Positions 15,001 to 64,000 of a DNA stretch of 64,000 nucleotides are shown piece by piece. How positions within the stretch are numbered: the first letter of the stretch is position 1; every line of letters starts with the position of its first letter. Source of the DNA: Azolla caroliniana (taxonomy: Eukaryota > Plantae > Polypodiophyta); assembly GCA_043228905.1 (NCBI GenBank), contig JBHGNT010000008.1:3906001-3970000 (forward strand). Reading direction: 5' to 3'. The notes beneath the pieces were generated by a model that saw nothing but the letters and a program-made list of their open reading frames with translations, was not told the origin of the DNA and made no database searches. The translations under genes and the position numbers were made by a program.

Positions 15001-15167
15001 TGAGCGTGCGTCATCTCACTCCGCGGACGGTTATCGGTCACAACCGAGAAGAAATCAGCAGTGCGGCAAGATCCTAAGGAGTCGAGCCTCCGACAACCTC
15101 CTCTCTCCTGGTCCATGACCCCAGTGGTCCCGCTTGGATTCGACATGCAAGCGCGGAATCCCGCGAC
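12052..15167 (+). mobile_element. Element B: 3' part of a non-autonomous gypsy-type element (N-like)
   Basis: 12052-13283 resembles the reverse complement of about 39896-41290. G-rich PPT, then 3' LTR TGTCGTGAAG (13284)...CGCGACA (15167), interrupted by a solo LTR. Right flank ACGG resumes the pol of C. Confidence 0.8.
14014..14809 (+). mobile_element. Solo LTR, copia-like, 796 bp
   Basis: TGTTGGG...CTGTCA flanked by 5-bp TSD GTAGG (14009-14013 and 14810-14814). GTGGTTTTTCCC...GGGTTTTCCACGTAAA motif; 30-bp tandem units at about 14100-14330. Confidence 0.85.
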
Positions 15168-16760
15168 AACGGATTGTTTGCCGATTCTTGGTATCATAGC
15201 TAATTGTGATATTCCAGATCAAGCTATGTTAAGATGGTGCATCTATATTAGATCAATCAACCTTGAAGTTCGAAATATCTCTGGGAATAGAAATGCAGTA
15301 GCAGATATGTTATCAAGAACAAGGTATGAGGAAGAGGAGATTCCAGACACAGACGATGAGGACAAAGAACAAACAGTCCTTACCACAAGCATTACCCGGG
15401 AAGGAGGAATGCAGTTTCTAGAAGAAGATTATGAAGAAGAATTCAAGGAAATAGGGAAATACCTACAAACCCCTGACAAGTACAAAGGTCAATCTGGAAA
15501 AGAGTTCGCACAATTTCACAAGAAAGCCCATAAGTTCTTCCTGCATGAAGGATATCTATGGCAACATCCAAAATCGAAGACTGGAAACCCGCAAAGAGTA
15601 ATAGGTTCTAAAGAGCAAAGAAAGGAGATAATGAGAGAGTTGCATGATAAAGAATGGGCTGGTCATTGAGGAGTGTGGGCCACTTTCATTAAGATTAAAG
15701 AACGGTTTTGGTGGCCTCGATACTATGAGGAAATAAAAAAGTATGTGGAAACTTGTCCCACTTGTCAATATTATTCAAATGTAAATTTTTTTGATGAGTT
15801 ACACCCAACATACTCACTGGGGGCGCATTACAAGTGGATGATTGATTTGATAACAATGCCACTTGGAGTAGGACAAAAGAGATACTTGGTTCTTGCAAGA
15901 GAAGATCAAACAAATCAAGTGGAAGGACGTGCACTACGAACAAAAGGGACATTAGGAGTATGTCAATTAATCTTGGAGGACATTGTTTGTAGATATGGAT
16001 GTATCGGGAAGAGATAGTGGCAGATAGGGGAGAACTCAATTCTACGGAAGCTCAAGATTTTTTCAACAAAGTAGGAATTCAGCTTTCTTTGACAACGGCG
16101 TATAATCCGGAAGTTAATGGAAAGATAGAAAGGGGCCATGGGCCAATAGTCAAAGCTTTAGCAAAGGCATGTAAAGGACGGGTCAGTGATTGGCCAAAAA
16201 TCTTACCCTATGCATTGTGGGCTGATAGGACAACTCACAACACTGTTACTGGATATATGCCTGCAGAATTAATCAAGCCGATAATGCCAATTGAAGAAAA
16301 GATAACTACATGGGTTGTGTTGCCTTGGGAATTAGAAATGAGTAGGGAAGATTTACTTGCGATTTGGATACGACAACTTCAATCAAGGACAAAAGACATA
16401 GAAAAAGCAACTACTAGATTGAAAGCGGCAAGAATCAAGAATAAGGACAAATTTGACAAGATAAAAAGAATATGACCAAGAAACGTGGGTATTAGTATAT
16501 GATAGCAGCCTAGATAATCAATACAGTACTATTCGGAAGTACGCAAAAAGATGGTTTGGACCTTATGAAGTTAGGAAAATAACAAATAAGGCCACATATT
16601 TCCTCAATGAATTAGATGGGACAGAAATTCGTATCCCAATTGCAGGAAAAGGGATTAAAATATTTAAAAGGAGGGAGTCACTAGAGCCCGAATTTTATGA
16701 AGAAGTAGAAGAGCTAAAAGAATTGGAAGAAGTTTTGGATGAACTCTGCATAACCAATGT
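15168..16760 (+). pseudogene. RNase H-integrase remnant of C
   Basis: ORF pieces 15061-15669, 15673-16017 and 15999-16475, separated by stops and frameshifts. Confidence 0.85.
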
Positions 16761-17735
16761 GCAAGTTTAGAGAGGGTAGGTGTCGTGAAGAATGTGCTTC
16801 ATGATATAAAAATGAACTTAAATATTGTATTTAGTAAATATATTTGAGAAACTTGAACCCACACCCTTATATATGAAGTACAATGTACATGCCACTAACC
16901 TAGGCTATTTATTTTTAGAAGAATTGTAAAGAATGGACTTCATGATATAAGAATGCAACTAAATATTGCATTGAGTAAAATCTAGAGACTTAATCCCTCA
17001 ACCTTGTATACCAAGCACAAGGTATACACCACTTAGGTAGGTTAGTTATTTTAGAATGTATTTCCATTATTATACTTATCCCATGTCTATTTTCATACAT
17101 GGAAGCTCAAATGAACGAGATGTCTATCATGCATCACATGCATTATATGCATGGGGGCACCTATAAAAAGAGGGGAATCAAGTGAGGGAAGGGAATCAAC
17201 AGAAAGTTAGAGAATAATATAATCAAACAAACAAGTTAGCTTATTTGTGTTACTGGCCGACAAAGGAGTCTAGAGTGTGAAACAGGGAGTTATTTAAGTA
17301 GTAGGAATGTGGTTGTAATTAAGCTATGAGTGTGGACGGACGGACCAGAATCGGTATGCCGTTCCAGATCCGGACCGATCCCGAACAAGTGCGGATGGCA
17401 CCGTTTTGTAATACAGACCGGAAACCTATTTAAAGGCCCGGATACAATGTAATGAATAACGGTTAATTAATAAAGCTTAGTGTTGTTATCTCTCTGTGTT
17501 AATTGCCGTTCTGCCTTCATTGTTATATCTTACGCATGTGATTATTAAAGACGATCAGGCTAAGTAACCTAATTAAGTCGGATTAAGTGTTGAGTCTAAT
17601 CCTGTTGCTGTAACACCCCTTTGGTGAAGTGTCTTCCGTAGACACCCTGTGTTAGGCCATTGTCCGCTCCTAAGAGTTAACACAGTTTTTGGCGACCACA
17701 ATTCCTGTTTTTGCAGCGAACGACGGCACAGATGG

Positions 17736-20700
17736 ATGTCTAGATCAACGCACGACCTGGTTACAAATCAAACTCGACGCCTTGCCGAAAGGCAAAGGAG
17801 ACGTGAGGCTTTCCAGCAAGCGGCGCAGGAAATTAGAGCGGATCGCTCGTTTTCCAACGTAATCCGGAGAGTAGCGGAGGACTCCCTCTGGTTACAGCAA
17901 ACATCGCACCCGGACGACGGAAGCAGCCTAAGCAGCCTCCGGGAAACCGAATCCCTTCTCCACGTGTTGGCAAACGGAGAAGGCGAAGCAGAAGCCTTTT
18001 CAGCATATGAATCGGACTCCGAAGGGGAATACAGCGTTCACACGAACTACCGTAGCAGCAACAAAACCCTGGGCGGACCGGAGGACGAAGGATCGGATAC
18101 CTTACAGACACCGGAACCGGAAGTGCTAACGCCGGAGAGGAAGAGCGACCTCCGACACCGGAAGTCGAAGAGGAGAGGCCTCCGTCACCAAAAGAAGAGG
18201 AAAGACCACTGACACTGGAGAAAATCCCGGAACGAGCACCAACACTGCCAGCCCGAGCACCGATACCGGACGACGACATGTCGTTCCAGTACTCCAAGTA
18301 TAGAGATGATCCGGACGCGGAAGCTCACGTGCACGCCTTTGAGCAGACCTGGGAAGCCAACCATGTGTCCCAGCGATTGACCCCGGATGAAGAGGAACGC
18401 TCTAAGATAGCGGAATTTGGCGTCACATTGGAGGGACCAGCAGCAAGATGGCGCCGGACACAGGACCCGTCTACCATCAACACCTTTGCATATTTAAAAG
18501 CTAAATTCTTGCATTTTTTCCAAAAGGAGGTGGACCAGACCGTAATGGTAGGCTTATTTTATACCATCCGACAGGAGGCAGGGGAGAGCATTACCCAATT
18601 TGTCATCCGGTTTCAATGGATGCATAGTCAGCTTGCCCGCGCACCCTCGGAGGAGGAATTAAGGACTATATGCCTAAACGCGCTCCGGGAACCCCTACGC
18701 ACGGTTTGCACGGTAATTGACTTCCGCACAAGTACCATCGACCAGGTCATTGACCGGGTGAGAGAGATGGAAAAGACAAGCTCCTGGCTCACACTGGGAG
18801 CACTCCAACGGGCGTTACCATCCGATGAAGACCTCCGGTTTCGGCAAGCAATACAGTGCACAACCTGCTTGAATTCCGGACACTCGGCTCTAGAATGCAC
18901 TATGAGGACGCAATGTGTAATCTGTCAATCCAAGGGCCATACGACAGATAGGTGTGAGTATAATCTATTGAACCGGCAAGCACCGCCCGTTCGACAAATT
19001 GAGCCACGCAACAGCCAGGATGAAGAAGAGGAACGCTGGCGGCGAATGGACCGAGACCGACTGGCACATGATGTCCGGTATGGCGATCCACGGGAGAATG
19101 ATGTCTGGTACGGTGATCGGCGGGATAACTATGACCGGCATGATCGGTACCGGGATTACAATAGACGATACAAACATTACGACCGGGAGCACTCCCCCGG
19201 GTATCGTCAGCAACGGGAGGAATACGACAGATATAACGACCAACCTCGTCAAGAGTACCACAATAAGAAGAGCTATAACAAAAAATGGCATTTCAAAAAA
19301 GGCGGCTACCCACGGGATCCGGAACAAGGAGCTCCAAGCAGCCAATCGGTCCAAAACCCCACGCGTACCGCAGGACCTGCCCCGGGTACAACAGACAATG
19401 CCGAATCCAGCAATACCCGGAAAGCCTACTGCTACTACTGCCGACAGGAAGGCCATTATAGTAATCAATTCCCGGTGAAGAGCTATGAAAAACGACCGGC
19501 GGTAAATATGGTAGTCCCTGAGGTGGCAGATCTGCAACAGGTGACCACAAGGTCGAAGGGCATGGCCAAGGAATGGGAGACGCAGGAGACCATCCGGAAA
19601 CAAGCAACGGAATGGGTGAAGAAAGCAAACGAGCAGAATGTCACAGACTTACAGCGGCAAAAGGAGAACACCGTAGGGCTTGCTGGCGGTAGTCACTCCG
19701 AGAACGAGACATGGCAGGCGTTGCAAGAATACCAGATTACGTTGCCACTAGGAAGACTCCTACAACTCGTGCCGAGATTCACGGAAGGACTGAAGACGGC
19801 CATGACGGCAGGAGAACCATCACCGGCACCGGTACTCTTCTCGAATCCGGAGGAGGGACCAACGGTGGTGGACACCAGCAGTCCGGTAATCACTGCCATT
19901 GTAAAAGGGAAAGAACTCCCCGGCACAATTATAGACGGAGGCTCTGGGGTGAATGTAATAAGCCTTCGGACGTGTGATGCCCTAGGAATCCATGAGTGGG
20001 AGCCGTGTCCGTTCTGGTTGCGGATGGCCGATACAAGCTCAGTGCGGCCGACAGGATTAATACGGAAATTAGAAGTCACGGTGGGCGGTCATACATTTCA
20101 CATTTCGGCAGTAGTGCTACAATTACAGGCACAAGGTGCATACCCGCTATTACTAGGGCGGCCATGGTTGAAAACGACACATATCAAACAGAATTGGAGG
20201 AAAAATATAATTACCTTCCGGCGAGGACAAGCCAAGGTATGGGTACCAACACAGCCAAGGACGAGCACTGGCAAGGAATGTACACCGTTGTATGCGGAAT
20301 GCATCAACATGCTAGAAGGGTTAGCTGACGAAGAAGAAGCTCAGTACTTGCAGGAAAACCCGAAGATCATACCCCTCTTCGAAATTGACATTGCCGAAGT
20401 AGTAGCACCATACTTACCGAACCGGAAGAGGCTGAAGCAGAACCGGATAAAGACGCAATCCGCGCAGGAAGCGTTGGAACGGGAAATGGTTGTTTCACAG
20501 CGCATAAAAGCGTCGCAACTGGAAGAGGTTAACCTAGGGACCACGGACGAAGCAAAACCGGTGCACATTGCCAAGGAGATGAAGTCCGAAGACAAAACGA
20601 CGATGATCACACTTCTCACGGAATTTCGTGATGTGTTCGCCTGGTCATACGAAGACATGCGAGGACTCGACCCTCAGTTATAAAAGCATCAGGTTCACTT

Positions 20701-23461
20701 GAGAAAGGACGCAAAACCAGTGGCACAAAGACGGTACCGGATGAATCCCAATTATGCCGCCAAAGTCAAGTAGGAAATCGACAAACTGCTAAGAGTTGGA
20801 TTTATCCGTCCGTTAAAGAAAGCGACATGGTTGAGCCCGATCGTAGTCGTACCGAAGAAGAATGGAAAAATTCGAGTTTGTGTGGACTACCGGAAACTCA
20901 ATGCAGCTACGGTAACGGATGCGTTTCCACTTCCGTTCACAGATGGAGTGTTGGATGCCGTCGCCGGCCATGAGGTCTATAGCTTCCTAGACGGATTCAG
21001 CGGGTATAATCAAATCCGGATGCACCCCGATGACCAAGAGAAAACGACTTTCGTCACCGAATGGGGGGTGTTTGTGGCCGTGGTGATGATGTTCGGACTC
21101 AAAATGGCACCGGCAACATTTCAACGAATCATCATGGAAATCTTTGGTGAATATATTCCAGCTTTTATGCAGGTTTTCCTTGACGATTTCGCCGTCTATA
21201 GCCGAGAGGAGGACCATTTCCAGCACCTCCGTCTTTGTCTAGAAAAGTGTAGAGCATACCGGCTAAGCTTGAATACGGCAAAGTGTGTATTTGGGGTGTC
21301 CAGTGGAACTCTATTAGGACATATTGTGAGCCAGGAAGGTATTGCAGTCGACCCGGATAAAGTGAAAGCCATATTAGAAGCATCGGCGCCGGCAACGGCA
21401 AAGGCATTAAGCCGGTTCTTAGGCCAGATCCGGTGGCACAACTGGATGCTTCAATACTTGGCCGACCTGGCTACACCGTTGCATGCCGCCGTACATCGGA
21501 CACCATTCCAGTGGACCGACACCGAGGATAGGGCGTCTAGGGCCCTCAAGGTACTATTGTCGCAAGCACCGGTAGTGCAGCCTCCGGATTGGAGTAAAGA
21601 ATTTCACGTGTTCGTGGACGCCTCTGACATCACAATCTGAAGCGTACTGATGCATCTTACGGAGCCAAAGTGGTACCGGCCAGTGTACTATGCCAGCCGA
21701 AAGCTATCCCAAGCAGAACGGAACTACTCTACCACGGAACGGGAATCTCTAGGGATGATCTACAGTGTGACAAAGTTTCAGCATTATTTATTGGGAAGGA
21801 AGTTTTCCTTCCATGTAGATCATTCGACACTCCTTTACCTGGTGTCCAAAGCGTCACTCACCGGCAAATTGGCCCGGTGGACCTTACTATTATAGGAATT
21901 CGAGTTTGAAATATTCCACCGACCCGGTATACAGCATGCCGTGGCGGATTACTTAAGACGATTAGAGTCCGGAGAGACGGGTGACAGAGTAGCGGATGAG
22001 TTTTCGGATGCGGAGCTGTTTCGAGTCACTACGGAAACGGCAGCAGATGAGACGGTGGCACAAGAAGACAAGTGGCTCACAAACATGCACCAGTTTCTGA
22101 GCACAGGACTGCCTCCGGAAGAGATGAACCAGGACGAACGGAAACGCCTGGCGGTGCAAAGCCGACATTTCGGCTTACTACAAGACACACTTTACCACAA
22201 GGGCGCGGACGGCATATGGAGACGGGCTGTGCGCAATGATGAAAAGGACCTGATACTGAGGGAAGCCCATTGCGGAGTTGCCGGAGGTCACTATGACGGA
22301 GATGCGACGGCCAGGAAAATATGGCAAAGTGGCCTATGGTGGCCAACGACATTAAGAGATGCGGTACGGTACACAAAAGAATGTGACCTATGCCAGAGAA
22401 TGGGCCAGCCAACGGAGCAGGCTCGTATGCCACACCAGCCGGTACTACCACTCGAGCCATTCCAGAAGTGGGGGCTGGACTTTGTTGGACCATTCAAACC
22501 ACCGGCAATGAGAACGGGTAATCGGTACGTCATCGTTGCGACGGATTACTGCACGAAATGGGTGGAGGCCAAAGCATTAAGAGACAACACCGCTGCGTCA
22601 ACGGCGAAATTTCTATACGAGTACATCTGGTGCCGTTACGGATGCCCAATCGAATTAATAAGCGACCAAGGGGGGCACTTTCTCGGCCAAGTAGTGGAAA
22701 GCCTGACGACATTTTATGCCGTTGTCCACAAATAGAGCACACCTTACTATCTGCAAGCGAACGGTTTAGCGGAATCAACGAACAAGACGCTCCAGAATAT
22801 CCTCCGGAAGATCGTCAACAAAAACTGAACGGATTGGGATACCAAGCTACATAGCGCGCTTTGGGCATATCGGACGGCATACAAAACGAGCATCCGAACA
22901 ACACCGTTCCGGTTAGTGTTTGAACTAGAGGCGGTAATGCCGGTGGAATTCCAAGTACCCAGCTTACGGATCCAGCTACAGGAACAGCTGAACGAGAAGG
23001 AGTCGGAGGCAATACGGTTAACAGCGCTGTGTGAACTCGAGGAACAACGACTGGCAAGCATCCTGCACTTAGAATGGGAACAACAGCGACAGAAAGCATT
23101 TGTTGACCGGCACAGGAAAGGAAACGAAAAAATGTTCGCAATCGACAAACTGGCGTTAGTATTTCAGACCCAGATGGGCAAGATGCCGGGTAAACTACGG
23201 TTTAGATGGACCGGACCGTATTGGCTAACACGTGAGTATAATGGGTCCTACCAGTTAGGGACACTTGCCGGTGAAGTGCTAGGCAAATGGGTCAACGGAT
23301 TCCGATTGAAGCCATATAGAGGACCGATGCCTAAGAACCCATTTGAGCAAAGGACCGACACCAGTGAGGGAAACGGCAACCACCAAGTCGGCAGAGACGG
23401 CGAGCCAGTAACTGGGGAGAATGAGGCCGGTAAGGGTCCGAGAGGACCAACGGACAAGTAA
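17736..23461 (+). pseudogene. gag-pol of D with several premature stops
   Basis: CCHC-type knuckles (CTTCLNSGHSALEC, CVICQSKGHTTDRC), IDGGSG protease, LDGFSGY/VFLDD RT, VDASD RH, HCGVAGGH...CDLC, WGLDF...SDQG integrase, GPY motif. Confidence 0.9.
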
Positions 23462-23832
23462 CGTCACACTAGTAATCATGAAAAAAAAAAAAAAACCGAA
23501 GTAATCATGCAAAAGCGAGGAATGAATGGACGAAAGAGCGAGGAGCGGAAAGGTACGTAGTGGGCATTTAAAGCGCCACCATAGGACATAATGCTATTTT
23601 AGTACACGACGTGCACACACTCGAAAAAGGCGCCAGAATGCACAAAGAAAAACCACTGCGCGTGGAGACCCTTTACTTTCGTGAACCCAGGAGCACAGAA
23701 GCACCAAGGCGCTCCAAGATCATCAGACGAGAACCTACGCACAAAGAACCCCCGCTATCTGAACTCTCTCTCTCTCAATCTCACTCGCATCACCATCCAA
23801 CCTCGCCACCGCAATCCGACCTCGACACAGAC

Positions 23833-26534
23833 ATGGACCCACAAACGCTGTCGGAGGCCGCCAAGACTTGGCTAAAGCAACACGGGCTCGAGGGCTTCTT
23901 GATGATGATGGAAGTACCGCCACACAAAGAAGCCAACAAGGTGATCAAAGAAATCAACATAGAGGTCATAACGGCAGAGGCGATTCGAGCGTTAACAGGC
24001 CTTCCGGAGGGAGGCATACTCACGATTGACCATCCGACCCCTGAGCAATTCATCAGGTATTTTGGTGAGTACTCCCTAGCCAGCAAGGGCTACCAGACAC
24101 ATGGCGGCGGAGATATGTTGTTCCGCGAGATTGCTCGGGTGCTCCACGAATACGGCCATGTGTACCCTAAACCCCCTGTCATGCCGCAGAACCGGGCAGG
24201 GATGATCATCGCCACCTATGAAGGTATCAAGGTGGATTGGCCGGTATTGATCGCAGACGGGTTGTGTGTGGCGATCGAGATCATCAGAGGCAAAGACGAC
24301 AAAGAAGGCCGAGACGGACGGAGGATATGGCACGCCGTAACGCAGTGGCTCACCTTGCTTGTGCCACCCGTCCAGCTCGTCCAGCCCAAGAAGTGAGGAA
24401 GAGTGGCTGACGGCACCCCAAAGACGGCTTCCAAAAGACAACAGTTGTTGGCCTCTAAGGCCACTAAGGGGAAGGCGGCGGATGCAGAACAGGCGGGAAA
24501 GGAGAGTGGCAGCTGGAAGCGGCCAACAGATGCGCAGGAGGAACCACCGGCACGGCCTGTAAAGGTTACATTCCGCCGACCGGTGAATAGAGAAGCGGAC
24601 CCCTTGGCGGCAAAACTCAATACCGGGACTCAGGAAGAGGAAATAGAGGAGGAGCCTACGGAGCACCTCCAGCGACGGTCGTCGGCAAGGACCGTTAAGG
24701 CAGCCGGGAAACGTTCAAACCCTCAGACGGAGGGAACACCGGCTCCCCATACTGAGACTCCCACGCCAAGGAAGGAACCGGAACCGGTGCGGATGGCACC
24801 GGAATCAGAAGCCCCGGCACCACCGGCAATACCGGCAAGTCCCATCCCGCTAGAGCAGGAAAGGTCAATGCAGCCTCCCTCGGGCAACCAAGAAGAAGCG
24901 CAAGGGGAACCAGGACAACAGGGTGGTCCACGGGCGGAAACGGAATTGCAACTCGACGCAACCAAGCGGGACCACCCATCTACAAGTGAGCCCAGCTGTC
25001 AAACCTCCGTGCAAACACAACAATGCACCGGTAACCTGTGGCTCCGGTGGATAGGCGAACAGATAGCCGGAGCAGTGGGGTATATTGAGGCGGAAGAAAG
25101 AGCGCAAAGCGAACGGTTGCTCGTCACAACCGAACAACTAAAGACGGCCCGGTCCAGAATCCGGTGCCTTGAAAAAGACTTGGATCAGGTCACGACAGAG
25201 ATGGCCAAAATGGCCTTAACGGCAACACAGATCCAATCACCGGTGACTCCGGTAAGTGTACAGAATAAAGAAACGGATCGACCTGTACATACCAATAAGA
25301 CCCCGGCAACGGAAACCGTTCCGGCGAGAGATGCGGCGCAAGCCCAGGAGCTTGCGGAATTGAGAGATGAACTTGCCGCACAGGAAGCGCTAAGGAGCCG
25401 TGAACGGGAATTGAAGACAGCGGCCGAAGCCGAATTAAAGAAGACTGCTAAGGGAGGAAAAAGACATCGTGCTGCAGTAAAAGGACAAGCTACGGAAGAC
25501 GGCGGAAACGGAAATTGAACGGCTAAAGGAAGAGCTCCGCCAGCAGAAGGACCGCGAGGACCGGGCCCGTCGACAGATCAACGCACGGCTCAAGCAAAAG
25601 ACAGATGATTTTGAGCACCTGCACCGGGACTACAAACGGCTGGAAACGGAGCATAAAGAACGGATGGCCGAGCTCCAGCAGGAAGTTGATCGGGCCGCGA
25701 CGGCGATCGCCGACGAACGTGCGGAAAATACAAGACGCTTGGACGAGGCGGAGAAGGTCCGGATGGAGCTCCAAAGGCAGCAGCATGAAGAAAAGGAGAG
25801 AGCGTCAACGGTATTGCAGAAATTACAAAGCACATATCAACGTCAAAATCATCAAGCAACTGAAGGAGGAACGACAAGCGGCGGAAACCAAATCGCAATT
25901 GGGAACGAGCTGGATTTAGTCCATCCTTCGGGCATGGCTGAATTAGACAAAACACTTGATTGATGAAAGCTCCGTAAGATGGTGGACAAAGTGGGCACAA
26001 AACGCGGCGGAACTCCAATTGCTACGGGCAGACGTGGCAAACCGGCGGAAGGAAGGAGATGATTGTTATACGTTAACTTCCGAGGACTTCACCGCCATAC
26101 GGGACGAGCTGGCCGACGACTTCCAAGTCCTGGCGGATGAACAGGTGGCGCAGGTCCGGCGACTCGTAGCTCAGCTAGACGATGATAGGCTGGACGCTCA
26201 AATCCAGTTTGAAAGCTACGAGCGGTCCCGGGTTCGGGAAGAAAAAGCAAGGGCAGCGGCAACGGTTAACCTTAGTGATGAGGAACCGTCGCCGGCCGAG
26301 GGCCAGCCCGGAACCAGTCAACCGGAGACCACTACGACGGAGGGAGCAACGACGGAGACGCCGGTGTCAGAGCAACAAACGGAGGAGCAGCCGCAGTAGC
26401 CACCAACGAACCCGTCGCAACAGACATCAACAGAGCAGCAACAACAGCAGCAACCACAACAACAACAACCAATTCCAGATGAACCATTGGAGACTCTCGA
26501 ACAAAGCATTCTGGATATTTTGGACGAAGAATAG
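23833..26534 (+). pseudogene. Extra ORF of D, about 900 codons when reconstructed; N-terminal globular part, P/E-rich linker, coiled coil, Q-rich tail
   Basis: MDPQTL... start, in-frame stops at 24394 and 26397, frameshifts near 25445 and 25900. Lies between pol and the 3' LTR. Confidence 0.65.
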
Positions 26535-27506
26535 CAAGGGTTGGTTGTGGATTCGACGTACAAGGTACTGTCCCACGGGCGTGCCATGTGTTACCGGCCG
26601 GCAAAGGAGTCCAGAGTGTGAAACGGGGAGTTATTTAAGTAGTAGGAATGTGGTTGTAATTAAGCTATGAGTGTGGACGGATGGACCGGAATCGGTATGC
26701 CGTTCCGGATCCAGACTGATCCCGAACAGGTGCGGATGGCACCGTTTTGTAATACAGACCGGAAACCTATTTAAAGGCCCGGATACAATGTAATGAATAA
26801 TGGTTAATTAATAAAGCTTAGTGTTGTTATCTCTCTATGTTAATTGCCGTTCTACCTTCATTGTTATATCTTACGCGTGTGATTATTAAAGACGATCAAG
26901 CTAAGTAACCTAATTAAGTCGGATTAAGCGTTGAGTCTAATCCTGTTGCTGTAACACCCCTTTGGTGAAGTGTCTTCCGTAGACACCTTGTGTTAGGCCA
27001 TTGTCCGGCCCTAAGAGTTAACAATTTGCAAAGAGGCTCGTGTCTTGGAGATGAAGTTGAGGGGTCAAATATAGAGTTTGGCAAAGAAAGATCTCATCTT
27101 GTGATGAAGCATTGTACAGGTGGTAAAATCATGTGTTCTTAATATAAAGTTTATTCTTATCATACCATTTCAATTCTTCAATCATACATTGTCTCTGTCT
27201 CTTATCTTTGCTCATCTCTCTCTTGTACAATACTTTCAACTTTTGTTCTTGCTACCCTTAATCTGTGGTAAAATCTTATCTTCTTCATATAAATCATGTT
27301 AATATCATATACTATTGCTTCTTGAGTCATATATTGTCTTTGTCTCTATTCTACGCTCGTCTCTTTGTCACACAATACTTTTAACTCTTATTCTTCCTAT
27401 CCTTAATCTTTCTAACATCAACGCACAAGCCTTATAAAATATATAGCCAACTCCCTTTAACCTTAGTCCCTGTGACTTCGCCGCACGAACCACAACTACC
27501 CCGACA

Positions 27507-27979
27507 ACGTAGTTATTCCTATCGAGTTTCTCCGTCGGGAGTGACCTTGCCATCCCTCTGTCCATTTCTTTTCTTTTCACTCTGTTCTTTTCCGGAAGCG
27601 AGGGTTCGTCTATGGAAATTGCTTGTCAGCAATAGAGGTTCTCAACCGTCGCACTCTGATACCATGTAAAGAGTTCGTGCGGAAGCTTTATAGACACAAC
27701 CGGCTCCATCGGATAGAAACAGAAAATTGAAGTGAACTAAGGTTTAATAGAAGCTTGAGAGCACACAGTACATGGGAGACATAGAGAGAGAGCAGAACAT
27801 TAACCCTATTTCAAAAATTACTCAAGACTCTGTACTTAAAACTGTGCTTTACAACACTATTTATACAAGTCCTTAAAGGACTGACTAAAGTACGAACAAG
27901 TACTTAATGTTTATATTGAGCTACTGACACTAATTCCTAGGAGAACTACCTAGTAGTTTAGGAGTGTAGACCTCCAACA
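27507..27979 (-). mobile_element. Element E: 5' end of a Ty1/copia element
   Basis: LTR 27665-27979, iMet PBS at 27653-27664, gag start MARSLPTEKLDRNNY (compare G: MGSSLPREKLDRSNY), cut by C. Confidence 0.8.
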
Positions 27980-32822: not shown

Positions 32823-32842
32823 CCCACACATGATGTACATAT

Positions 32843-41545: not shown

Positions 41546-41937
41546 CTTCTCGACCCTGTCCCGGGTCGTCCTTTTCCGCATGCCGAGAGACCGTTTTGCT
41601 CCGCACCCTCTCCCGTGGTACCGACATACCGTGTCCTCAGCCTCTTCGTAGGCCAGCTCTCTTCCTCCCTCCCGGAATGGTCATCCGGGAGTCCGCTCTG
41701 CCCGGTTCTCCTCCGGGTCTGTTCGTCCTTCTCCGGATTACCGGGTCCTGTTCTCCTGTCGCCACCGTCTCTCGTATAGGACTTACGCCGGCACTCGGGC
41801 CTGCAGCCGGATCGGTGTAAGGAATCCCATTGGACCGGCTTTCATTCTCTTTCCAAATCTCGACCTTCGCCCGGTCGGTCTTTCTCCCCATGTAAAAGAG
41901 GGCGGCTTGTCCCGCACCCTCTCCCGTATCGGCACCT

Positions 41938-44399: not shown

Positions 44400-44417
44400 T
44401 GGTGAACCCGACGTGAA
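44400..44417 (+). promoter_or_regulatory. Primer-binding site complementary to the tRNA-Trp 3' end
   Basis: TGGTGAACCCGACGTGAA is the reverse complement of TTCACGTCGGGTTCA-CCA, the plant cytosolic tRNA-Trp end as I recall it. Identical 18-mer at 43393-43410, 59553-59570 and 61948-61965. Confidence 0.85.
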
Positions 44418-44433
44418 AACGGGTGGCAAGAAG

Positions 44434-46473: not shown

Positions 46474-46527
46474 AGCGGACTGTTGCGGAGTGGGGAAGTG
46501 ATAGTCCGAGAAGCCCTGATACCCCAC
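46464..46527 (+). promoter_or_regulatory. -1 ribosomal frameshift signal (G GAU UUU plus pseudoknot)
   Basis: Heptamer 46464-46470 before the TAA; stem 46476-46486/46498-46508; loop GTGGGG can pair with CCCCAC at 46522-46527; -1 frame is open into pol. Confidence 0.7.
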
Positions 46528-50075: not shown

Positions 50076-51739
50076 GTTGCACACTATGTGGAAATTATAT
50101 TTTTGTCCCTCCGGATAGAGAATGGAGTGCTCGGTGAGAACCGGAAGAAAACGGCAACCGGCAAGGAAGAAAACGGCATACCGGCAAGGAGGAAGAAAAC
50201 GGCATACCGGCAAGGAGGAAAAACGGCATACCGGCAAGGAGGAAAACGGCATACCGGCAAGGAAGAAAACGGCATACCGGCAAGGAAGAGCCGGATAAAG
50301 AGACATAAATGTAAAAAGAAAGGAAATATTTACTACTGCGCAGGGCGTGATTCAAACTCTGCACCTCCACGTTGACAAACCCCAACCTTACCATTACATT
50401 AAATTATCTTAAGTGTTTTAAATATAGATTTAATATGTATAAGACCTTTATTTATGCATACCTTTATTAAAAGGTAAATCGTGTATTTCTTTAATATATG
50501 AAAAAGAAAATACACGAGACACTAAAAATAACTCAGGCACATCTAGCGTGCATGAGCCCTATACTTAGGAAATAAAAAAGCATCACATGCACATTTAGTA
50601 GACATGAACACTTTTTGTAAAAGAAAAAAAAAAGCATGAAGCCATGCTTAGCTCTTCTTTCCTTATATAAGGAGGAGAGAAATATGTAAAGGGTTGTTGA
50701 TTATTTGGATTAAGTATTAATCAATACAAAAATTATTCGTGGGATTCACGATTTATACATCTACTTCTCTCTTAACACCCTAAGTACCAATTAATATAGT
50801 ATACTCGTGTGATTCACGAGTTTCTTATCTTTCTCTTTGCTATTTACTCTTAATTAATCTCTATCTCACGAACTTCTTTCTCCTAGTCCAAGACCTCTGT
50901 GGTTCCCACCCGACTCACGCAACGATCCGCAGCCGAAAGGCACGACACCGGGAGCAACCGAAGGGAGAGAGGGAGAGAGATGCTTAACACCGACTCACGC
51001 ACACACACGCACACACACGCGCACACACGCACACACAGCCCGACCCGACTCACGCCCTTATGTACAGAAACGCAGGAAAGGGGTAGCACCCGACACCAAC
51101 AGAGACGCGGATGTACACAGACAGACGCAAATGTATATATATATATATATAAACAAGAATACATTCCCGGCTTCGAGCCGAACCAAGGTAGGTTACAGTA
51201 GTCGTCAGCTGTCAAGCCGCCGGTCGGGGAGCTCACGGGCTCGTCGCGCCGAGCGGGGTCTTGCGCAGGAGATGAGCTGAAGCAAACCCTAAGCGAACAC
51301 GAAGGAGAAGAAGAAGAAGAACCTAACTCTAAACCTAATGGTATACCCTCTAATGCAAAATGGGCAACCCTTTCACAAAGGGCGTTCCCTTCCTTTTATA
51401 GAACAAGGACAGGGATGCGTTACAATGTGGGACAAATCCCGCCTTACATGGGATCGTCTGCCCTGACTTGACTACTCTTCGGCGCCATAAAGGCACCCTC
51501 GATATTCACACTAAATGTACATGGGTGCACACACGCTACACCCCGCCGATGTAGCCAATTTTTCCCGGTTTCCGCCTCTAGCCGAAATTCTTCACGACAG
51601 CGCTCTCTCTCTTTCTCTCTCCCTTTCGGTTGCTTCCGGAACGCGTCTGGAATCGTCTTCTCAGCTTCCCTTCTTCCCTCGTCTAAGACCCCCGTGGTCC
51701 CGCCCTTCTACACGCGCGCGGGTAATAACGCGACAACGT

Positions 51740-55150: not shown

Positions 55151-58100
55151 GCAACTCCTCCTGTTCCTCCTTCATCGCCACTACTCGGAGCGGGATGTCG
55201 TTTCTCTTCTTCGGGTGCTTCCATAAGTATCCGTCCCGGAGAAAGAATCGGTACGCTTTCTTCCGGATCCGGTTGGCCTCGTCCTTTGTCCATGACGCGT
55301 CCGGCGTCATCGTCCTTAAGAATCCTCCAATCTGCAGCCACTCCCCATCGTACATGCTTTCGTTAAAATCGTTAAGCGCCGGAGTGCTCCCCCCCTCGGT
55401 TGTTACGTAAGCCGCCTCGAAGAAGTCCACGCCGACTTCCTCGTCCTCCGAAACCATGTTGCCCTCGTCGTTGAATCGCGTCCTCGAAAGCATGTCGGCC
55501 ATGGCATTGTCTTTCCCGGAAATGTGTGTGTCGTATTTCCGGATCCAGGGACATGATGTACGCTATCCACCTGAGCATTGCCAGGTCCGGGGTTGCGCAT
55601 CCGGAAACCATGCCGAGAATCGGCAGGCAGTCCGTCTCGATAATCACCTCTGTCCCGATCAAATAGTCTTTATTGGCCTTCACCGCCGAAACGATACCCC
55701 AGAGTTCGCGTTTAACCTGGGCGTATCCTCGATGTCACTCACTGAGGACCTTCGCACCGAACCGGATTGGGAACCGAATGCCGTCCTCATCTTCTTGGTT
55801 GACAACCCATCCGATCCCGGTCGGACTCGTATCTACCGTTATGTAGACGGGAGTGCCTTTCTCATAGACAGCCTTCCGGAGTGCCGGTGCTGCAGCAAGA
55901 GCCTCCTTCATCTTTCGGACCAACTCCGTATGCTCGTCTCGCCTCTCGAACCTCTGTACCTCCGTTTCCGAGTTACAGTCGGGCTTCATTGCGGAGATGG
56001 CTTCCACCTTAGCCGGAGACGGTTTCCGGCCATACGGTCCGCATAGATGTCCGATGACCATGATCTCTGATTGCCCGAAGGCCGATTTCTCCCCGGAGAA
56101 GGTGAGCCTCGCTTCCTCTAGCCTCTTCAGCACCCTCTTGCAGTCATCAATGTGTGTCGCCACGAATTTCCGGCATGCGTCCGGTCCGATCGTTTCGTCC
56201 TTTTCCTCCACTGGACATCCCTTGATCGGGATGTCGTCCAAGAATGGCATGGTGATGTCCGGGAAACAATCCCTTAGCACCTTGTTCATCGCATTCACCA
56301 TGTGGGCCACCGAGTTCGTCCCTCCTTGTGGCAGGGTACACATCCGCACTAGGCCGAGAGGAGTCCGCATCGTCGTAATGTCTCTGCTCTCTACGGCTAG
56401 TTGGAACTGGTCGTACCCCAAGTACGGATCACCGACCGAGTAGATCGACCTTCCGGCGAATGCCTCCGTGAACTCGTCTATCGTTGGTCCGATTCCTGCA
56501 TTCCGAATGGTCACGCTGTTGACCGGTTGCAGGTCTTGAATGAAGCGCAACGTCCCGTTCTTCTTCGGTACGGTAAACCACCGGTTCGAGTACGGGGCAC
56601 ACGACGGTTCGAGGATGCCCATATCAACTTTCTGCCTCAATAGCTCCATCAGCTCCGGGATGTGAGCTCTCGGTACCGAAATTGGCTTGAGATTCCACAG
56701 CACAAGTTGTACCGTGAATATCACCATCGGCTTCACGACTGTCGGGTCTACGCACCCGATCTCCTCCGGCGAGAATGCGAAGGCTTTCTCGTGCCTTCCG
56801 AGCATTCTCCGAAACCAGTCTTCTTCCGCCGGCAGTAGGAACCCGCCCCCATCGATTTTGAGCTCCCGTAGCGTTCTGTCGTGAAGGCGTGCCCTATGCA
56901 GGCCGGATCTCGTAAACTGGGGTCCGACGCGACCCCCTTGATTCGCAACTCGCTGCCCTCCGGTAAGGGTGCCGCGACTGGCCTTACCTTCTGGTCCACA
57001 GTCCTGTACTTCGTGTTAACCTGTGCCATCCGATCCGACTCGAGCCCTCGACTGAAGTCCGCGATGACTTCGTACATCTCTTCTGAACAAACCGGTATCG
57101 TTCGGTCCTCTTTAAGGCCCTCTCCGACCACCTCTCGCAGTATTCCCAAGGTATCGTCGAGGGAGACCGCCTCCACGGCTCCGTTGATTTCCTCGCTGGG
57201 ACCGAGAACTTCGTACGCCCGAAGTCGCTCTTCCGCCCTTGTCTTTTCTCGGCCAACGACGTCGACTATCGTACACCCTCCGTTGTCGGAGAAACAAAAC
57301 ATCCTACTTATGGTACAGGGTTTCTTCGGTTTCGCCTCTATCGTACATTTGTGGGGTTTTCCCGGACTGTCTGGACTGTCGTAGCCCCACGCCTTGACAG
57401 CCCTCTCTAAAAATCCTCTCGGTTCTCACCACCTAGGGACTCGCGGTTTCGCTCGTGGTTCAGTCGCACCGTCAGGAACTGGACCAAATGACGCCCATCC
57501 TGACTCTTGACCCTCGCGTAAGCCGACCCATTGTCCAGCACCTTGGTCTCCATCCGCGCTGCCGTAATGTACGGTTCTCCCAGTATGATCGGGTGCGAGG
57601 ACGTCTCCTGCACAAAGAAGTGTTAGTCTATCTCGACGTCGCCGATCTTGACTCGCACATTTGGGCAGGCCCCGTGTAGTTCCTCGGTGGCGCGCGTCAC
57701 CGCTCGTATCTTCCACCCGTGCTTGGTGTTGATCGGCCATTTCCCCTTCTTGTAGAAGTCCATGGACATCAGGTTTATTTCCGAACTGTGGTCCACCAGC
57801 GCCACCACCGGTTCCTGAACTTCTCCGATCTTCACCGGGGTTTCCGTGGTCGCTCGGGCCCAGTGTGGCCTCGAATAGTGGCTCTCTGCCCACTCGTCTT
57901 CCATCGCCATGTCCTCCATGTGCGTCGTCCGCACCTCCACCGGCCTTTCTGATTCTGCCTCCGTCGACATCCTCTTCCTCTTCACCAAGTCTACGATGGA
58001 GTCGTGGAACTCCTTCTTGGCGATTCCGAGCACCTCCCGCAACGACAGTTCCACTTTGTTGTCAAGGATTCGTTCTTCCAGGACCTTTCGTAGGTCCGTG

Positions 58101-60226
58101 GTCCTTTCGATCTCCGTGCCCAAATGGTATCCGCCCTTCTTGTGGTTATCCCGGGCACTGGACTCACCGGCCTCGTTCCGTTTCGGCCTGAATCGGGTTT
58201 CGTATCTCTGTGAGAGTCCGGCCCCTCCTGTTTTACCTACCCGTTTGTCTTCAACTAGAGCCTCGTAGTTCTGGCAAGCTGCTTCGACGAAACCCGTCTT
58301 TTCTTCGACCGGGTCACTCCATCCGGTTACCTCCTGGACCCGCTTCTCCGCGCGGTCCGCCTCGTCTCTCTTTAGTCGGGCACCGGCGAGGCCTTCCAGC
58401 ACCGTCGGCCAGAACCCGACTTTGCTCTCCTTCCGATCCTCGCTGCCTCCGACCCGAATACCGGCTGACGCTGAGTAGTGGACAGTCTCTGCGTGCCGGG
58501 CTGCCGCCTCTTCCATCAGCCTTTTCATTCCTCCTCGCCCGTCAATTCGGTTCAGGGCCCTCCAGGTATCGTTGGCGTGACCCGACCTTCCCACAGGTAC
58601 ACTACCCGGCTTCTCAAAGCCTCCATAAAGTCCTCGCAGTCTTTCCGGATGTGGCCGACCTCGTCGCACCACATGCACCTACTTCCTGCCGGAGGCCGTC
58701 GGTCACGAGCCTGATCGCCGCCTTCCCTCCGAGCCTGGGCGATCTGGAGATCCTTTACCGCTCGTGTCAACTCTTCAAGAGTTGTTCCCCCGGACGAGCC
58801 TCTGATCACGCCGGTCGAAGACGAACCAGTTTCGAGCCACTCCCGGGTCTCTTCCCTTCGCGCCTGCGGTATCAGTTCGAGCTTCCTTGCTGCGACAGGT
58901 CCCGCCCCGGTCGCCTCTGTATCAGCCCACTCCCACCGTTTGTCAAAACGGCCGCAGACTCTCTTTACCTCGGCCCAGTCGGCTGTCAGCCCGTCTTCGG
59001 TTTCCAGTAAGGAGCCAACTTGCCCCCGATCCCGTGCGTCAACAGATTTGACAAATAGTAGGACACGACTTGTGTCCAGAATGGTCCGATCGAGCGCCGA
59101 AAGGCGCACAAAGCGTTCCTCAAACTCCCGGAGGAGTACCAATGCATTTCTTCCTTTGTTGGGGGACTCCACCCACTCCATGAAGCCCCGCTTCGAAAGT
59201 CGAAGCGCGTCATCCAGCCCGTATTTCTCCAGGAGCCGTCCTTCGAACTCCTCCCAGGTCCGGCTCTCCGCCCGGACCTCGAGCACCTCCGCATGGATGC
59301 CCGACATCGCCACTCGAGGGAATCCGGCAAGACGCCTCTCTTCCGGAATATCCCTCATCAACATCTCTGCCCGGTAGGATGCCAAATAGCTCGTGGCATC
59401 CTTTCCATTGAACCGGCCAATCATACCGACGATCGCCTCAATAGCCCTGTCAAGGGCGCCGGTGCCCTCGCGCGCGCTCACTATCCGGTCCACGGCCGAA
59501 GCCATGGCCTCTGCAAGATCCGACCCCCTCATCTGCTCCTCTACCGCCTTGTTTCACGTCGGGTTCACCAAAGATGTCACGTTACTACGCGCGTGCATGG
59601 AGAAACGAGGCGGGACCACCGGGGTCTTGAACCGAAGAGCAGGTGATAGAAGGGGAAAGAGAGAGAGAGAGACGCCCAGTCACGTATGAGCAAAGAAACA
59701 CAGGGGCACGGCCCGTCAACACAGAAGACGCGAATGGACACAAAGACAGGGAGACACAAGTTTTTGTAAATTAACGAATAACAAATACACAACAGAGCAC
59801 GTGAGCGGTTACAACCGAACAGGTCGGCGAACAGATGTCGATGCTTGTTCGTCTGCGCACGAAAGGAGAAAAGGGTGGAGGTGCTGCCGGAAGCACACGG
59901 GCGTTCCTCGGAGCAGCGCGAGCCTCCCGAAACCCTGCAGAGAAGAGCGATCGAGAACGAACAGAGGAGAAGCGTTCGGTTACGGTCTGACAGCACTTCG
60001 TCCTCCTTAATGTGCAATCCCTTCTCTCCCGCGTCTCCCTCTCTTTTATAGCTTAAGGAAGGGAGCCGTCTCCCTCATTTACTTCCTACCTACCGAATCT
60101 AACTACCCCCGGATATGCCTATGTACCTAATTTCCTATTATATACATTAAAGGGCGCGCACGCGTGAAGAGCCGATTCACGCGCGCTATGCACCGATTGC
60201 GCTAAGGGACGGTTTTCTTCACGACA
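55151..60226 (-). mobile_element. Element K: Trp-PBS gypsy, 3'-deleted
   Basis: 5' LTR 59575-60226, PBS 59553-59570, broken gag-PR 59532-57407, RT-RH to about 55151 where it fuses to I gag. Outer flank ACGT. Confidence 0.88.
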
Positions 60227-60835: not shown

Positions 60836-61309
60836 CGTTTTATATAACCAATTAATTACCACTACAACATCATTGAATATATAAAAACAATTACATATTA
60901 ACCATACACATGATTAAATTGGGAGAAGAAAGAATAGAAAAAAAACAAGAAACATTACCAAAGTTCCTTTGTTGATTGTTGTTTGGAACAAGGTCGACCG
61001 CACGTTGATCAATCGCCATCCATGAAGAAGACAAAACCAACAAAAGAAACATTAGAACATAGGCTCTGATACCAACTATTAGAGACATGAACTAATGTAA
61101 GCATTAGATAAGGATAGAATATAGATAGATAGTTAGAAAGGAGAGAGAGAAAGAAGGGTGCCGATCCACCCAACCACCCCCGAGCGAAGGGATCGAGACG
61201 GACTCGAGCCTCGATCGGCGTCCCATACCACCGTCATGGCATCGAGTCATACCTGGTGCTGGCGCGCTCGCTACAGGAGTTGACCCACCACAAGACAGAA
61301 TCTTGACGT

Positions 61310-64000
61310 TGTCGTGAAGAAAACCATCCACAAGCGGAATCGGTGCACCGGAGCGTAGGAACCGGCTCTTCATGAACGTACGCCTTATGTTGTACATAGA
61401 AGATCCTAGGTAGGTAGATTCGGTAGGTAGGAAGTTAATGGGAAACGGCTCCTTCCTTGCCTATAAAAGAAGGAAGACGAGGAGGGGGTGAGGGATCGCG
61501 AATAGTCGAGGACGAAGTGCTGTCAGTTTGTGGGCGGAGGCTTCTCTCTCTCTCTCTCGCTCGTAGACTCCGTAGCTTCTGGCTGTGCAGGTTTCAGGAG
61601 GCTCGCGCTACTCTGAGGAATGCCCGAGTGCTTCCGGAAGCACCTCCAACCTACTCTTTCCTTTCTGTGCGTTTACGAACAGGCATCGGCATCTGTTCGC
61701 CGGCCTGTTCGGTTGTAACCGACTTCGTGATTTTTGCTGTTTGTTTGTTAATATATACATTTACATACATTCGTGTCTCTCTGTGTCGGTGTCCCACTCG
61801 CGTCTTTGTGTCGAAGGGCCGTGTCCCTGTGAATCAACGCTCGCACGTAGTGGGTCCCCTCCCTTCTCCTTTCTCTCATGCTCTTCGGTACAAGACCCCT
61901 GAGGTCCCGCCTCATTCCACGCATCCGCGAGGGATACCTCGACATCTTGGTGAACCCGACGTGAAGGAGGCGGCAGAAGAGCAGAAGATGAAAGGGTCGG
62001 ATCTTGCGGAGGCCATGGCTTCGGCCGTGGATCGGATATTGAGTGCACGCGAGGGCTCCGGCGCCCTCGACAGAGCCATTGAGGCGGTCGTCGGTACGAT
62101 CGGCCGGTTTAGCGGAAAGGATGCCACGAAGTATTTTGCGTCCTACGAGGCAGAAATGTTGATGCGGGACATTCCGGAAGAGAGGCGTCTTGCCGGGTTC
62201 CCTCGAGTGGCGATGCCGAGCATCCATGCGGATGTGCTCGAGGTGCGGGCCGAGAGCCGTACCTGGGAGGAGTTCGAAGGTCGACTCCTAGAAAAATACG
62301 GGTTGGACGACGCGTTCCGGCATTCGAAACGGGACTTCATGGAGTGGGTGGAGTTCCCCGGCAAGGGAAGAAGCGCGTTGGCACTCCTCCGGGAGTTTGA
62401 AGAACGCTTTGCGCGCCTTTCGGCGCTTGACCGAACCGTTCTGGATACGAGTCGGGTCCTACTGTTCGTCAAGTCGGTGGACGAGCGGGACCGGGATCAA
62501 GTCGGCTCCTTGCTGGAGACCGAAGACGGGCTGACAACCGACTGGGCTGCGGTTAAGAGAGTCTGTGGCCGTTTCGACAAACGGCGAGAATGGGCTGATG
62601 ACGGGGCGGCCGGTGCGGGCTCTGTCACAGCAAGGAGGCTTGAACCGGCACCGCAAGGGCGACGGGAAGAAGCCCGGGAGTGGCTCGAAACCGGTTCGGC
62701 TTCGACCGGCATGATCAATGGCTTGTCCGGAGGAGCAGCGCTGGAGGAGTTGATGCGGGCGATAAAGGATCTCCAGATCGCCCAGACTCGAAGGGAAGAC
62801 GGCGAACCGGCTCGTGACCGACGGCCGGCAGCCGGGAACAGGTGCATGTGGTGCGACGAGGTCGGCCACATTCGGAAGGACTGCGGCGATTTCGCTGAGG
62901 CGTTGAGGAACCGGGTGGTGTACCTGTGGGAAGTCCGGGTGCACGCCGGCGATACCAGAAGGGCCCTAAACCGAAACGACGAGCGAGGAGGTATGAAGAG
63001 ACTGATGGAAGAGGCAGCGGCCCGACACGTGGAGGCCATCCACTACTCGGCGTCAGCCGGTATTCGGGTCGGGGGCAGCGAGGCCCGAAAGGAGAGCAAG
63101 GACGGGTTCTGGTCGGCAATGTTGGAAGGCCTCGCCGGCGCACGACTGAGGAAAGATGAAGCGGACTGCGCCGAGAGACGGGTCCGGGAAATAACCGGGT
63201 GGAGCGACCCGGTCGAGGAGAAGAAGGGCTTCGTAGAAGCCGCCTGCCGGAACTACGAGGCGCTGGTAGAGGACAAACGAGTGGGGAAAGCCGAAGCAGC
63301 CGGGCCCTCACAGCGATACGAGACCCGATTCGGGCAACGACGGAACGAAGCCGATGGGTCCAGCGCGCAAGATAACCCCAGGAAGGGCGGATACCGATTG
63401 GGGACAGAAATAGAAAGGACCACGGACCTACGAAAGGTCCTAGAAGAACGGATCCTCGACAGCAAAGTGGAGCTGTCATTACGGGAGGTGCTAGGGATTG
63501 CCAAGAAGGAGTTCCACGACTCCATTGTGGACTTGGTAAAGCGGAAGAGGCTGTCGACGGAGACAGAACCGGAAAGACCGGTGGAGGTGCGGACGACGCA
63601 CATCGACGACTTGGTGCTGGAAGATGAGTGGGCGGAGAGCCAGTATTCGAGGCCACACTGGGCCCCAGCAACCACGGAGACCCCGGTAAAGATCGGAGAT
63701 GTTCAAGAACCGGTGGTGGCGCTGGTGGACCACGGTTCGGAAATAAACCTGATGTCCATGGACTTCTATAAGAAGGGAAAGTGGCCGATCAACACCAAGC
63801 ACGGGTGGAAGATACGGGCGGCGACGTGCGCCACCGAGGAACTGCACGGGGCCTACCCGAACGTGCGAGTCAAGATCGGCGACTTCGAGATTGACCAGCA
63901 CTTCTTCGTACAGGAGACGTCCTCGCACCCGGTCATATTAGGGGAACCATACATCACGGCGGCGTGAATGGAGACCAAGGTGCTGGACAACGGTTCGGCC
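61310..64000 (+). mobile_element. Element L: Trp-PBS gypsy (K-like), runs off the window
   Basis: LTR TGTCGTGAAG 61310-61944, PBS 61948-61965, inserted after ACGT in the 5' LTR of I. Confidence 0.9.
61988..64000 (+). pseudogene. Gag-protease of L with a premature TGA at 63965
   Basis: MKGSDLAE start, CMWCDEVGHIRKDC, LVDHGSEIN. ITAA*METK here versus ITAARMETK in K. Confidence 0.85.

What the first reader, a model, noticed from the sequence alone, without database searches (positions are those of the whole stretch)
15160..61320. A gypsy lineage that inserts at CpG with 4-bp target duplications (7 of 7 sites)
Seen: three complete insertions have 4-bp TSDs: M ACGT (38464/51736), N GCGC (39136/51600) and J CCGG (43531/50948). 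For M and J the empty site can be rebuilt from the host reading frame or the sister LTR, confirming 4 rather than 5 bp. The four one-sided junctions read ACGG (B, 15168), ACGT (C, 27507), ACGT (K, 60227) and ACGT (L, 61306). All are N-CG-N and six are palindromic, even in AT-rich hosts. D and the copia-like solo LTR have ordinary 5-bp TSDs. Known: plant LTR elements usually make 5-bp TSDs with weak sequence preference. Inference: the integrase recognises CpG, possibly methyl-CpG, which could steer a chromodomain-less element into TE nests.
Basis: partly seen in the sequence, partly recalled or inferred. Interest (0 to 1): 0.85.

Follow-up and report, generated by a model that had tools for sequence, protein, structure and literature searches.

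The report
Phygy-like retrotransposons inserting at CpG
Several related jumping genes in this plant DNA insert almost only at CG sites and duplicate 4 bases; the pattern is real but was already reported for the moss Phygy lineage, to which they likely belong, and whether the CG must be methylated is untested.

Summary
All 7 window junctions read N-CG-N; M, N and J have exact 4-bp duplications and fail at 3, 5 and 6 bp (chance about 4e-10). Independent junctions in metagenome loci agree: 8 of 11 CG, the other 3 CA/TG, the decay products of methylated CG. But it is known. Neumann et al. 2019 list Phygy as '4 bp (100%) (NCGN)', n=186, tRNA-Trp PBS, no extra domain. J has the same duplication, PBS type (tRNA name recalled) and domain set, and its RT groups with liverwort (Riccia) elements. 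The defining test, a tree with P. patens Phygy, could not be run. Added here: the target refines to V-CG-B with ACGT favoured (8 of 15); an invariant Glu sits at the integrase position that touches target DNA in foamy virus; and there is a likely -1 frameshift signal between protease and RT. TE CpGs here appear methylated, but so is CHG, and no methyl-reader domain was found, so the methyl-CpG idea stays open (about 15%). The scan's index showed no earlier report of this.

The parts
13284..15168 (+). Element B, 3' LTR (M/N-like family); PPT before it; 5' half missing or interrupted
   Evidence: LTR start similar to M and N; end matches PBS-defined ends of L008/L009
15169..15172 (+). B target ACGG, in the RNase H coding region of element C
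   Evidence: J homolog reads ACGG at 48318-21
15169..27506 (+). Element C: RH-INT fragment and 3' LTR (16781-27506, split by D); same lineage, integrase has DRGEL
   Evidence: tblastn to J pol 50-62%; motif; 3' end inferred from terminal CGACA only
27507..27510 (+). C flank ACGT (weakest of the seven)
   Evidence: no homolog covers the LTR end
17248..27023 (+). Element D, a different gypsy lineage, 5-bp TSD ATTTG; internal control
38468..51735 (+). M, solo LTR of about 804 bp once N is set aside; TSD ACGT 38464-67/51736-39; host is a chromovirus integrase gene
39140..51599 (-). N, non-autonomous element (about 5043 bp without J, gag-like ORF, no pol); TSD GCGC 39136-39/51600-03; PBS 43394-43410
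43535..50947 (+). J, full-length 7413-bp element; LTRs 43535-44395 and 50063-50947 differ by 1 substitution in 861 aligned columns plus a length difference; TSD CCGG; inserted in N's 5' LTR
44400..44416 (+). J primer-binding site (tRNA-Trp type; tRNA name recalled)
   Evidence: complement equals the CCA-ended small RNA 'miR894' listed in PMC5846777
44335..46473 (+). J gag-protease ORF (stop to stop), DUF4100 and weak Asp protease hits
46464..46507 (+). Candidate -1 frameshift signal: G GAT TTT, stop, then a stem-loop
46350..50075 (+). J pol ORF: RT, RNase H, integrase; no chromodomain or archaeal-type RNase H hit
49179..49193 (+). Integrase DRGEL motif: second catalytic Asp, with Glu at the position aligned to foamy-virus Ala188
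49821..49853 (+). Basic AGKRVKIFKKR motif at the end of the integrase C-terminal domain, followed by an acidic tail
55152..60226 (-). Element K: 5' LTR 59575-60226, PBS 59554-70, gag to start of INT, 3' part lost; flank ACGT 60227-30
61310..64000 (+). Element L: 5' LTR 61310-61944, PBS 61948-64, runs off the window; flank ACGT 61306-09 in a copia-type LTR

Best explanation
J, K, L, C and the integrase-less M, N and B are related non-chromoviral Ty3/gypsy elements, likely of the Phygy lineage, that leave 4-bp duplications centred on CG, likely because their integrase cuts with a 4-bp stagger, kinks the target at the central step and reads the C-G bases itself without needing methylation. Shown: the 4-bp duplication, the central CG, the V-CG-B and ACGT bias, the shared PBS and domain set. 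Taken from retroviral work: a 4-bp stagger needs a sharp bend and favours a central pyrimidine-purine step, with T avoided at position 0 (PMC4422553). Inferred: base-specific readout narrows that step to CG, with the invariant Glu after the second catalytic Asp and the basic C-terminal motif as candidate contacts; M, N and B were moved in trans; the CA/TG junctions are later deamination of methylated CG.
For: 7 of 7 window sites NCGN, P about 4e-10. 11 independent locus junctions: 8 CG, 3 CA/TG, 0 other. Loose-end consensus after J's LTR end starts ACGT in the two runs for which the row is shown (X1 32 contigs, X2 39). After M's end, 10, 19, 14 and 1 contigs run through ACGT and then diverge, against 26, 29 and 23 that leave at the LTR end with a PBS-led consensus. 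Phygy table: 4 bp (100%) NCGN, 186 elements, tRNA-Trp 81%, no extra domain. J and K RT sit in a 22-row group with 5 Riccia proteins, apart from chromoviruses and D, 100/100. No T at position 0 and no A at +3 in 21 outward read-outs from 18 sites; ACGT is 8 of 15 intact sites against 4.2% of window NCGN. DRGE Asp and Glu invariant in 61 of 61 aligned sequences, DRDxxF in 26 of 26 chromovirus-set matches. Foamy-virus integrase, a 4-bp cutter, is the best sequence and fold match.
Against: No P. patens Phygy sequence was available, so membership rests on features. J (7413 bp) is a little below the published Phygy range of 7656-9968 bp. Nothing here separates CG from methyl-CG. In foamy virus, Ala188 contacts bases outside the duplication, not the central step, and the D-to-hydrophobic spacing is one residue shorter in J, so the residue match is alignment-level only. 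The fold match has low TM-scores (0.32) because domain arrangement differs. The run data are majority consensus lines, not per-site counts.
Confidence: 0.72

Rival explanations
1. The integrase needs or strongly prefers 5-methyl-CpG, reading the symmetric methyl groups at the bent central step. This would direct a chromodomain-less element into silenced TE DNA.
For: TE DNA here shows CG-biased C-to-T change: D LTRs CG 10/40, CHG 7/29, CHH 1/90; copia LTR copies 7/27, 3/9, 1/67. 3 of 11 locus targets read CA/TG. All seven window hosts that could be named are TEs. Phygy-into-Tcn1 nests were the commonest repeated nested pairs in P. patens (PMC6911290), and Phygy is among families enriched at centromeres of the liverwort Apopellia (PMC12885004).
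Against: No methyl-reader domain in Pfam or in the model; the tail after the C-terminal domain is acidic and has low confidence. The window is nearly all TE, so TE hosts are expected. Decay shows methylation after insertion, not before. Retroviral central-step preferences persist on naked DNA (PMC4422553).
Confidence: 0.15
2. There is no base readout: the enzyme only wants a flexible central pyrimidine-purine step, and CG wins by local composition.
For: 4-bp retroviral integrases all enrich central YR steps. Three locus junctions have CA/TG.
Against: TA, CA and TG are each more common than CG in the loci (0.057, 0.067, 0.068 against 0.041), yet 15 of 18 sites are CG and none is TA. Phygy is 100% NCGN in 186 elements.
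Confidence: 0.04
3. These elements are a separate lineage that reached the same target, PBS and layout independently of Phygy (for example TatI-like or an unnamed clade).
For: No direct comparison with Phygy proteins was possible. TatI also has 4-bp TSDs and a tRNA-Trp PBS. J is below the Phygy size range.
Against: TatI carries an archaeal-type RNase H in 100% of elements and only Phygy has NCGN; J has no such domain. The only named hits of J pol among 120 listed are from the liverwort Riccia sorocarpa.
Confidence: 0.08
4. The pattern is a picking artefact: junctions were called where CG followed a CGACA-like motif.
For: Four of seven sites are one-sided and C has no homolog support.
Against: Three two-sided sites alone give about 1.6e-4; blind probe searches and sequencing-run contigs repeat the pattern.
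Confidence: 0.01

Closest known systems
Phygy (non-chromovirus Ty3/gypsy clade of Physcomitrium patens; Neumann et al. 2019, PMC6317226)
   Same: 4-bp NCGN TSD, tRNA-Trp PBS, no chromodomain, no archaeal RNase H, no extra ORF, coding region filling the internal part.
   Different: Described there as species-specific to P. patens; J is 7413 bp against 7656-9968; coding layout was 'ND' there and here shows a gag-PR / pol -1 overlap. Phylogenetic identity not tested directly.
Riccia sorocarpa gypsy proteins (R1sor_006544, R1sor_011087 and others)
   Same: 58-63% identity over J pol for the best ones, same RT group, DUF4100, same C-terminal basic motif and acidic tail.
   Different: Their target sites could not be read here.
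Selgy and TatI (Selaginella and related non-chromovirus clades in the same paper)
   Same: 4-bp TSD; TatI also has a tRNA-Trp PBS.
   Different: Selgy uses tRNA-Ala and averages 5 kb; TatI has an archaeal RNase H; neither has an NCGN preference.
Prototype foamy virus integrase (intasome structures 3oym, 3l2q, 4e7k)
   Same: Best sequence and fold match; 4-bp stagger, central YR step, T avoided at position 0.
   Different: About 21% identity; its preference is weak, not near-absolute CG; Ala at the position where J has Glu.

Membership tests
Phygy | RT, RH and INT cluster with P. patens Phygy in REXdb phylogeny | not testable with these tools
   REXdb FASTA and per-element table too large to read; no named P. 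patens hit among 120 listed of 229 or 29 of 29. RT tree only shows J apart from chromoviruses and D, with Riccia.
Phygy | 4-bp TSD with NCGN motif | tested here: met
   3 of 3 two-sided sites; 15 of 18 sites CG, 3 CA/TG.
Phygy | PBS complementary to tRNA-Trp | tested here: met
   Same 17-nt PBS in J, K, L, N and 13 of 45 loci; complement is a CCA-ended plant small RNA. That the tRNA is Trp is recalled, not shown by a call; no tRNA gene was found.
Phygy | No chromodomain, no archaeal RNase H, no extra ORF | tested here: met
   Pfam on J gag and pol; model ends in an SH3-like strand set and a low-confidence tail; ORFs run from PBS to 3' LTR.
Phygy | Element size 7656-9968 bp (descriptive range, not defining) | tested here: not met
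   J is 7413 bp, 243 bp below the published minimum.
TatI | Archaeal-type RNase H in the polyprotein | tested here: not met
   No such Pfam hit in J pol.
Selgy | tRNA-Ala PBS, about 5 kb, no TSD motif | tested here: not met
   PBS is not of that type (name recalled), J is 7.4 kb, TSD motif is strong.
Chromoviruses (Tcn1, Tekay and others) | Chromodomain and RT clade | tested here: not met
   No chromodomain; RT separated from 15 chromovirus-set rows.

The most novel reading that the evidence does not exclude
The Phygy-type integrase is a methyl-CpG-directed enzyme: it reads symmetric 5-methylcytosine at the kinked centre of its 4-bp target, so a chromodomain-less retrotransposon uses the host's own silencing mark to land in TE nests. 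It would be the first LTR integrase shown to select sites by DNA methylation, as far as my searches reached.
Probability: 0.15. Interest if true: 0.8.

Novelty: new member of a known kind. Interest (0 to 1): 0.3.

Why it matters
The CpG target itself is in print as one sentence and one table row, with no mechanism. This window supplies a very young, apparently intact copy (J), a refined target (V-CG-B, ACGT best) and two candidate integrase contacts, which make the open question, sequence readout or methyl readout, directly testable. A strict CG-specific LTR integrase would also be a useful model for how target specificity evolves from the weak preferences of retroviral integrases.

Tried and rejected
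No genome was held, so no genome-wide logo. Phygy reference proteins were sought in the Neumann supplements, in PMC7466625 and its supplements (sequence cells cut at 400 characters, RLG2/RLG3 not tied to Phygy), by homolog searches, cluster look-up and the Atlas; none gave one. A host-chromovirus search did not name the host plant. Rows dropped from the junction count: hits inside coding regions (L008, L009, L016, window 56517, L001, L002, L010 555), LTR-internal repeats (L006 534, L010 4155), one PPT-side start (L005 6230) and all PBS-adjacent ends, all PPT-adjacent starts and L012 6741 (GTGT, 6 of 22 mismatches, inside copia coding). The P values (3e-9; 3e-6 at a CG frequency of 0.1) were computed for 8 of 12, before that last row was dropped. 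In one search the J-end row was not shown for X7 and X17, and no 5' junction row was shown; N's outer end fell in a masked repeat. Single-sequence folding failed (pLDDT 35). Rfam, ARAGORN and a viral-contig scan for the PBS gave nothing relevant. GingerRoot (6-bp TSD) and Ylt1 gave no parallel. The motif count caught only 30 of 121 and 26 of 120 proteins because the pattern was strict. Methylation bias is weak or absent in the older pairs (K vs L, chromovirus copies) and uninformative in J.
Full report
Observation. The window is a nest of LTR retrotransposons; no whole genome is held. All ten junction coordinates were read directly. M, N and J are flanked by exact 4-bp repeats (ACGT, GCGC, CCGG) and fail at 3, 5 and 6 bp. 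B, C, K and L have one junction each: ACGG, ACGT, ACGT, ACGT. D, a different gypsy, has the 5-bp repeat ATTTG. With local CG frequencies of 0.015-0.076 in the host flanks, 7 of 7 has probability 3.6e-10; three sites alone about 1.6e-4 at the window-wide frequency.

Empty sites. M's flanks match a sister chromovirus copy with a 4-base gap, and contigs of the uninterrupted host site with one ACGT appear in runs X1, X2 and X18. J's site has the length of the sister LTR if 4 bases are duplicated; that sister reads CAGG, but M's LTR reads CCGG at the homologous place. L's host has a sister copy with ACGT at the same point, and B's host position reads ACGG in J. C is the weakest: its end has no homolog.

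Independent junctions. A scan of metagenome contigs with J pol gave 45 loci. Probes made from LTR ends next to a PBS or PPT recovered, blind to flank, all window outer ends except C's, and 11 outer junctions in the loci: ACGT (L002, L027, L035, L011), ACGG (L015), ACGC (L012), GCGG (L009), CCGG (L043), ACAG (L036, L003), CTGC (L013). So 8 of 11 are CG and the other 3 are CA or TG, what deamination of methyl-CG would leave. Dropped rows are listed under Tried and rejected. In sequencing-run contigs the consensus after J's LTR end starts ACGT in X1 (32 contigs) and X2 (39) (rows for X7 and X17 not shown), and after M's end 10, 19, 14 and 1 contigs pass through ACGT before diverging. Over 18 sites no junction has T at position 0 or A at +3, and ACGT is 8 of 15 intact sites against 4.2% of window NCGN. 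The target is best written V-CG-B, ACGT favoured.

What the elements are. J is 7413 bp, with LTRs differing by one substitution in 861 columns, a gag-protease ORF and a pol ORF with RT, RNase H and integrase, and no chromodomain or archaeal RNase H hit. J, K, L and N share a 17-nt PBS, also seen in 13 of 45 loci; I recall it as tRNA-Trp, and its complement is a CCA-ended plant small RNA. The only named relatives among the 120 listed hits are from the liverwort Riccia sorocarpa, up to 63% over full length. An RT tree of 38 rows (5 from the window, 33 of the fetched proteins) puts J and K with Riccia and environmental sequences, apart from chromoviruses and D, at 100/100; the root is midpoint and D is a long branch. 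M is a solo LTR and N and B lack pol. The host plant was not identified; C-to-T change is biased to CG and CHG in D's LTRs (10/40, 7/29, CHH 1/90) and in copia LTR copies (7/27, 3/9, 1/67), the plant pattern.

What is known. Neumann et al. [quoted passage not shown] Jedlicka et al. 2019 (PMC6911290; passages) found GC-rich centres in 4-bp TSDs and Phygy-in-Tcn1 nests in P. patens. Phygy is also reported in the liverwort Apopellia (PMC12885004; passages). The window's elements meet every Phygy feature I could test except size (J is 243 bp short). The defining test, phylogeny against REXdb, could not be run, and the unread files bear on it. I file them as Phygy-like, very likely Phygy.

Mechanism. 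Serrao et al. 2015 (PMC4422553; passages) show that integrases with a 4-bp stagger bend the target sharply, favour a central pyrimidine-purine step, avoid T at position 0 and A at +3, and keep these preferences on naked DNA. The V-CG-B pattern fits this. Flexibility alone does not explain it, since TA, CA and TG are each more common than CG in the loci and TA is never used, so a base-specific contact is inferred. J integrase is closest to foamy-virus integrase by sequence and fold. Its second catalytic Asp is followed by RGEL; the Asp and Glu are invariant in 61 of 61 aligned sequences, where chromoviruses have DRDxxF. The Glu aligns with Ala188, a target-contacting residue, although in foamy virus that contact lies outside the duplication. 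A basic AGKRxKxF motif closes the C-terminal domain in all 13 proteins printed. Both are candidates only.

Methyl-CpG. TE CpGs here appear methylated and some targets have decayed, so methylated targets are available. But no reader domain was found, CHG is as methylated and is not used, and a TE-only window cannot show steering. Searches and Neumann's text showed no test of methylation dependence; subscription papers are not covered. I put it at 0.15.

Verdict. Real, statistically strong and reproduced outside the window, but a published lineage trait: new member of a known kind, interest 0.3. The useful additions are the refined target, candidate integrase contacts, a young intact copy for assays, and a likely -1 frameshift signal between protease and RT. 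Look-ups in the scan's own notes returned nothing bearing on this.

Noticed in passing
window 46464-46507 (J), 57362-57419 minus (K); loci L001, L003-L012, L017: The gag-protease ORF ends at G GAT TTT followed at once by a stop in 14 of 18 rows (J, K and 12 loci), with pol open in the -1 frame in the intact ones; L013 and L014 have G GTT TTT, one row ran off the window and one was a broken segment. A 10-pair stem follows (11 sequences, mostly one-sided changes, 2 pairs with a change on both sides). G_GAU_UUU is called a typical -1 slippery motif in the abstract of PMC11050907 (search listing). Likely a programmed -1 frameshift between protease and RT; Neumann gives Phygy's coding layout as ND.
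   Followed up: partly
window 59554-59573 (K), 44400-44416 (J): The PBS complement is the small RNA annotated as miR894, first reported in moss and mapped to gypsy repeats in Cryptomeria (PMC5846777 passages). It is likely a tRNA 3' fragment that could both prime and silence these elements.
   Followed up: partly
window 39140-51599 (N), 12049-15168 (B): N and B are related non-autonomous elements with a gag-like ORF (N) and no pol, sharing LTRs with solo LTR M.
   Followed up: partly
window 38201-51800: Four-level nest: chromovirus host, then M, then N in M's LTR, then J in N's 5' LTR. Three of seven insertions (B, N, J) are into members of the same lineage.
   Followed up: partly
window 55152-64000: K and L are 82-84% identical, lie back to back about 1.08 kb apart and both have ACGT flanks; they appear to be separate insertions.
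   Followed up: no
window 17248-27023 (D): D is a non-chromovirus-looking gypsy with long extra ORFs after pol (23572-26399) and a long RT branch; lineage not assigned.
   Followed up: no
window 1640-3425, 4886-5327: Tandem arrays: a 255-bp duplication, a complex TAGCTAATTAGC-based satellite and a 13/40-bp repeat.
   Followed up: no
window 4058-4795 minus: A 245-aa open frame that is not an obvious retrotransposon domain; not searched.
   Followed up: no
loci L013:7371, L003:333, L036:1352: The three CA/TG targets; at L013 and L003 the LTR end itself has also decayed (CATGACA for CACGACA), as expected of older copies.
   Followed up: partly
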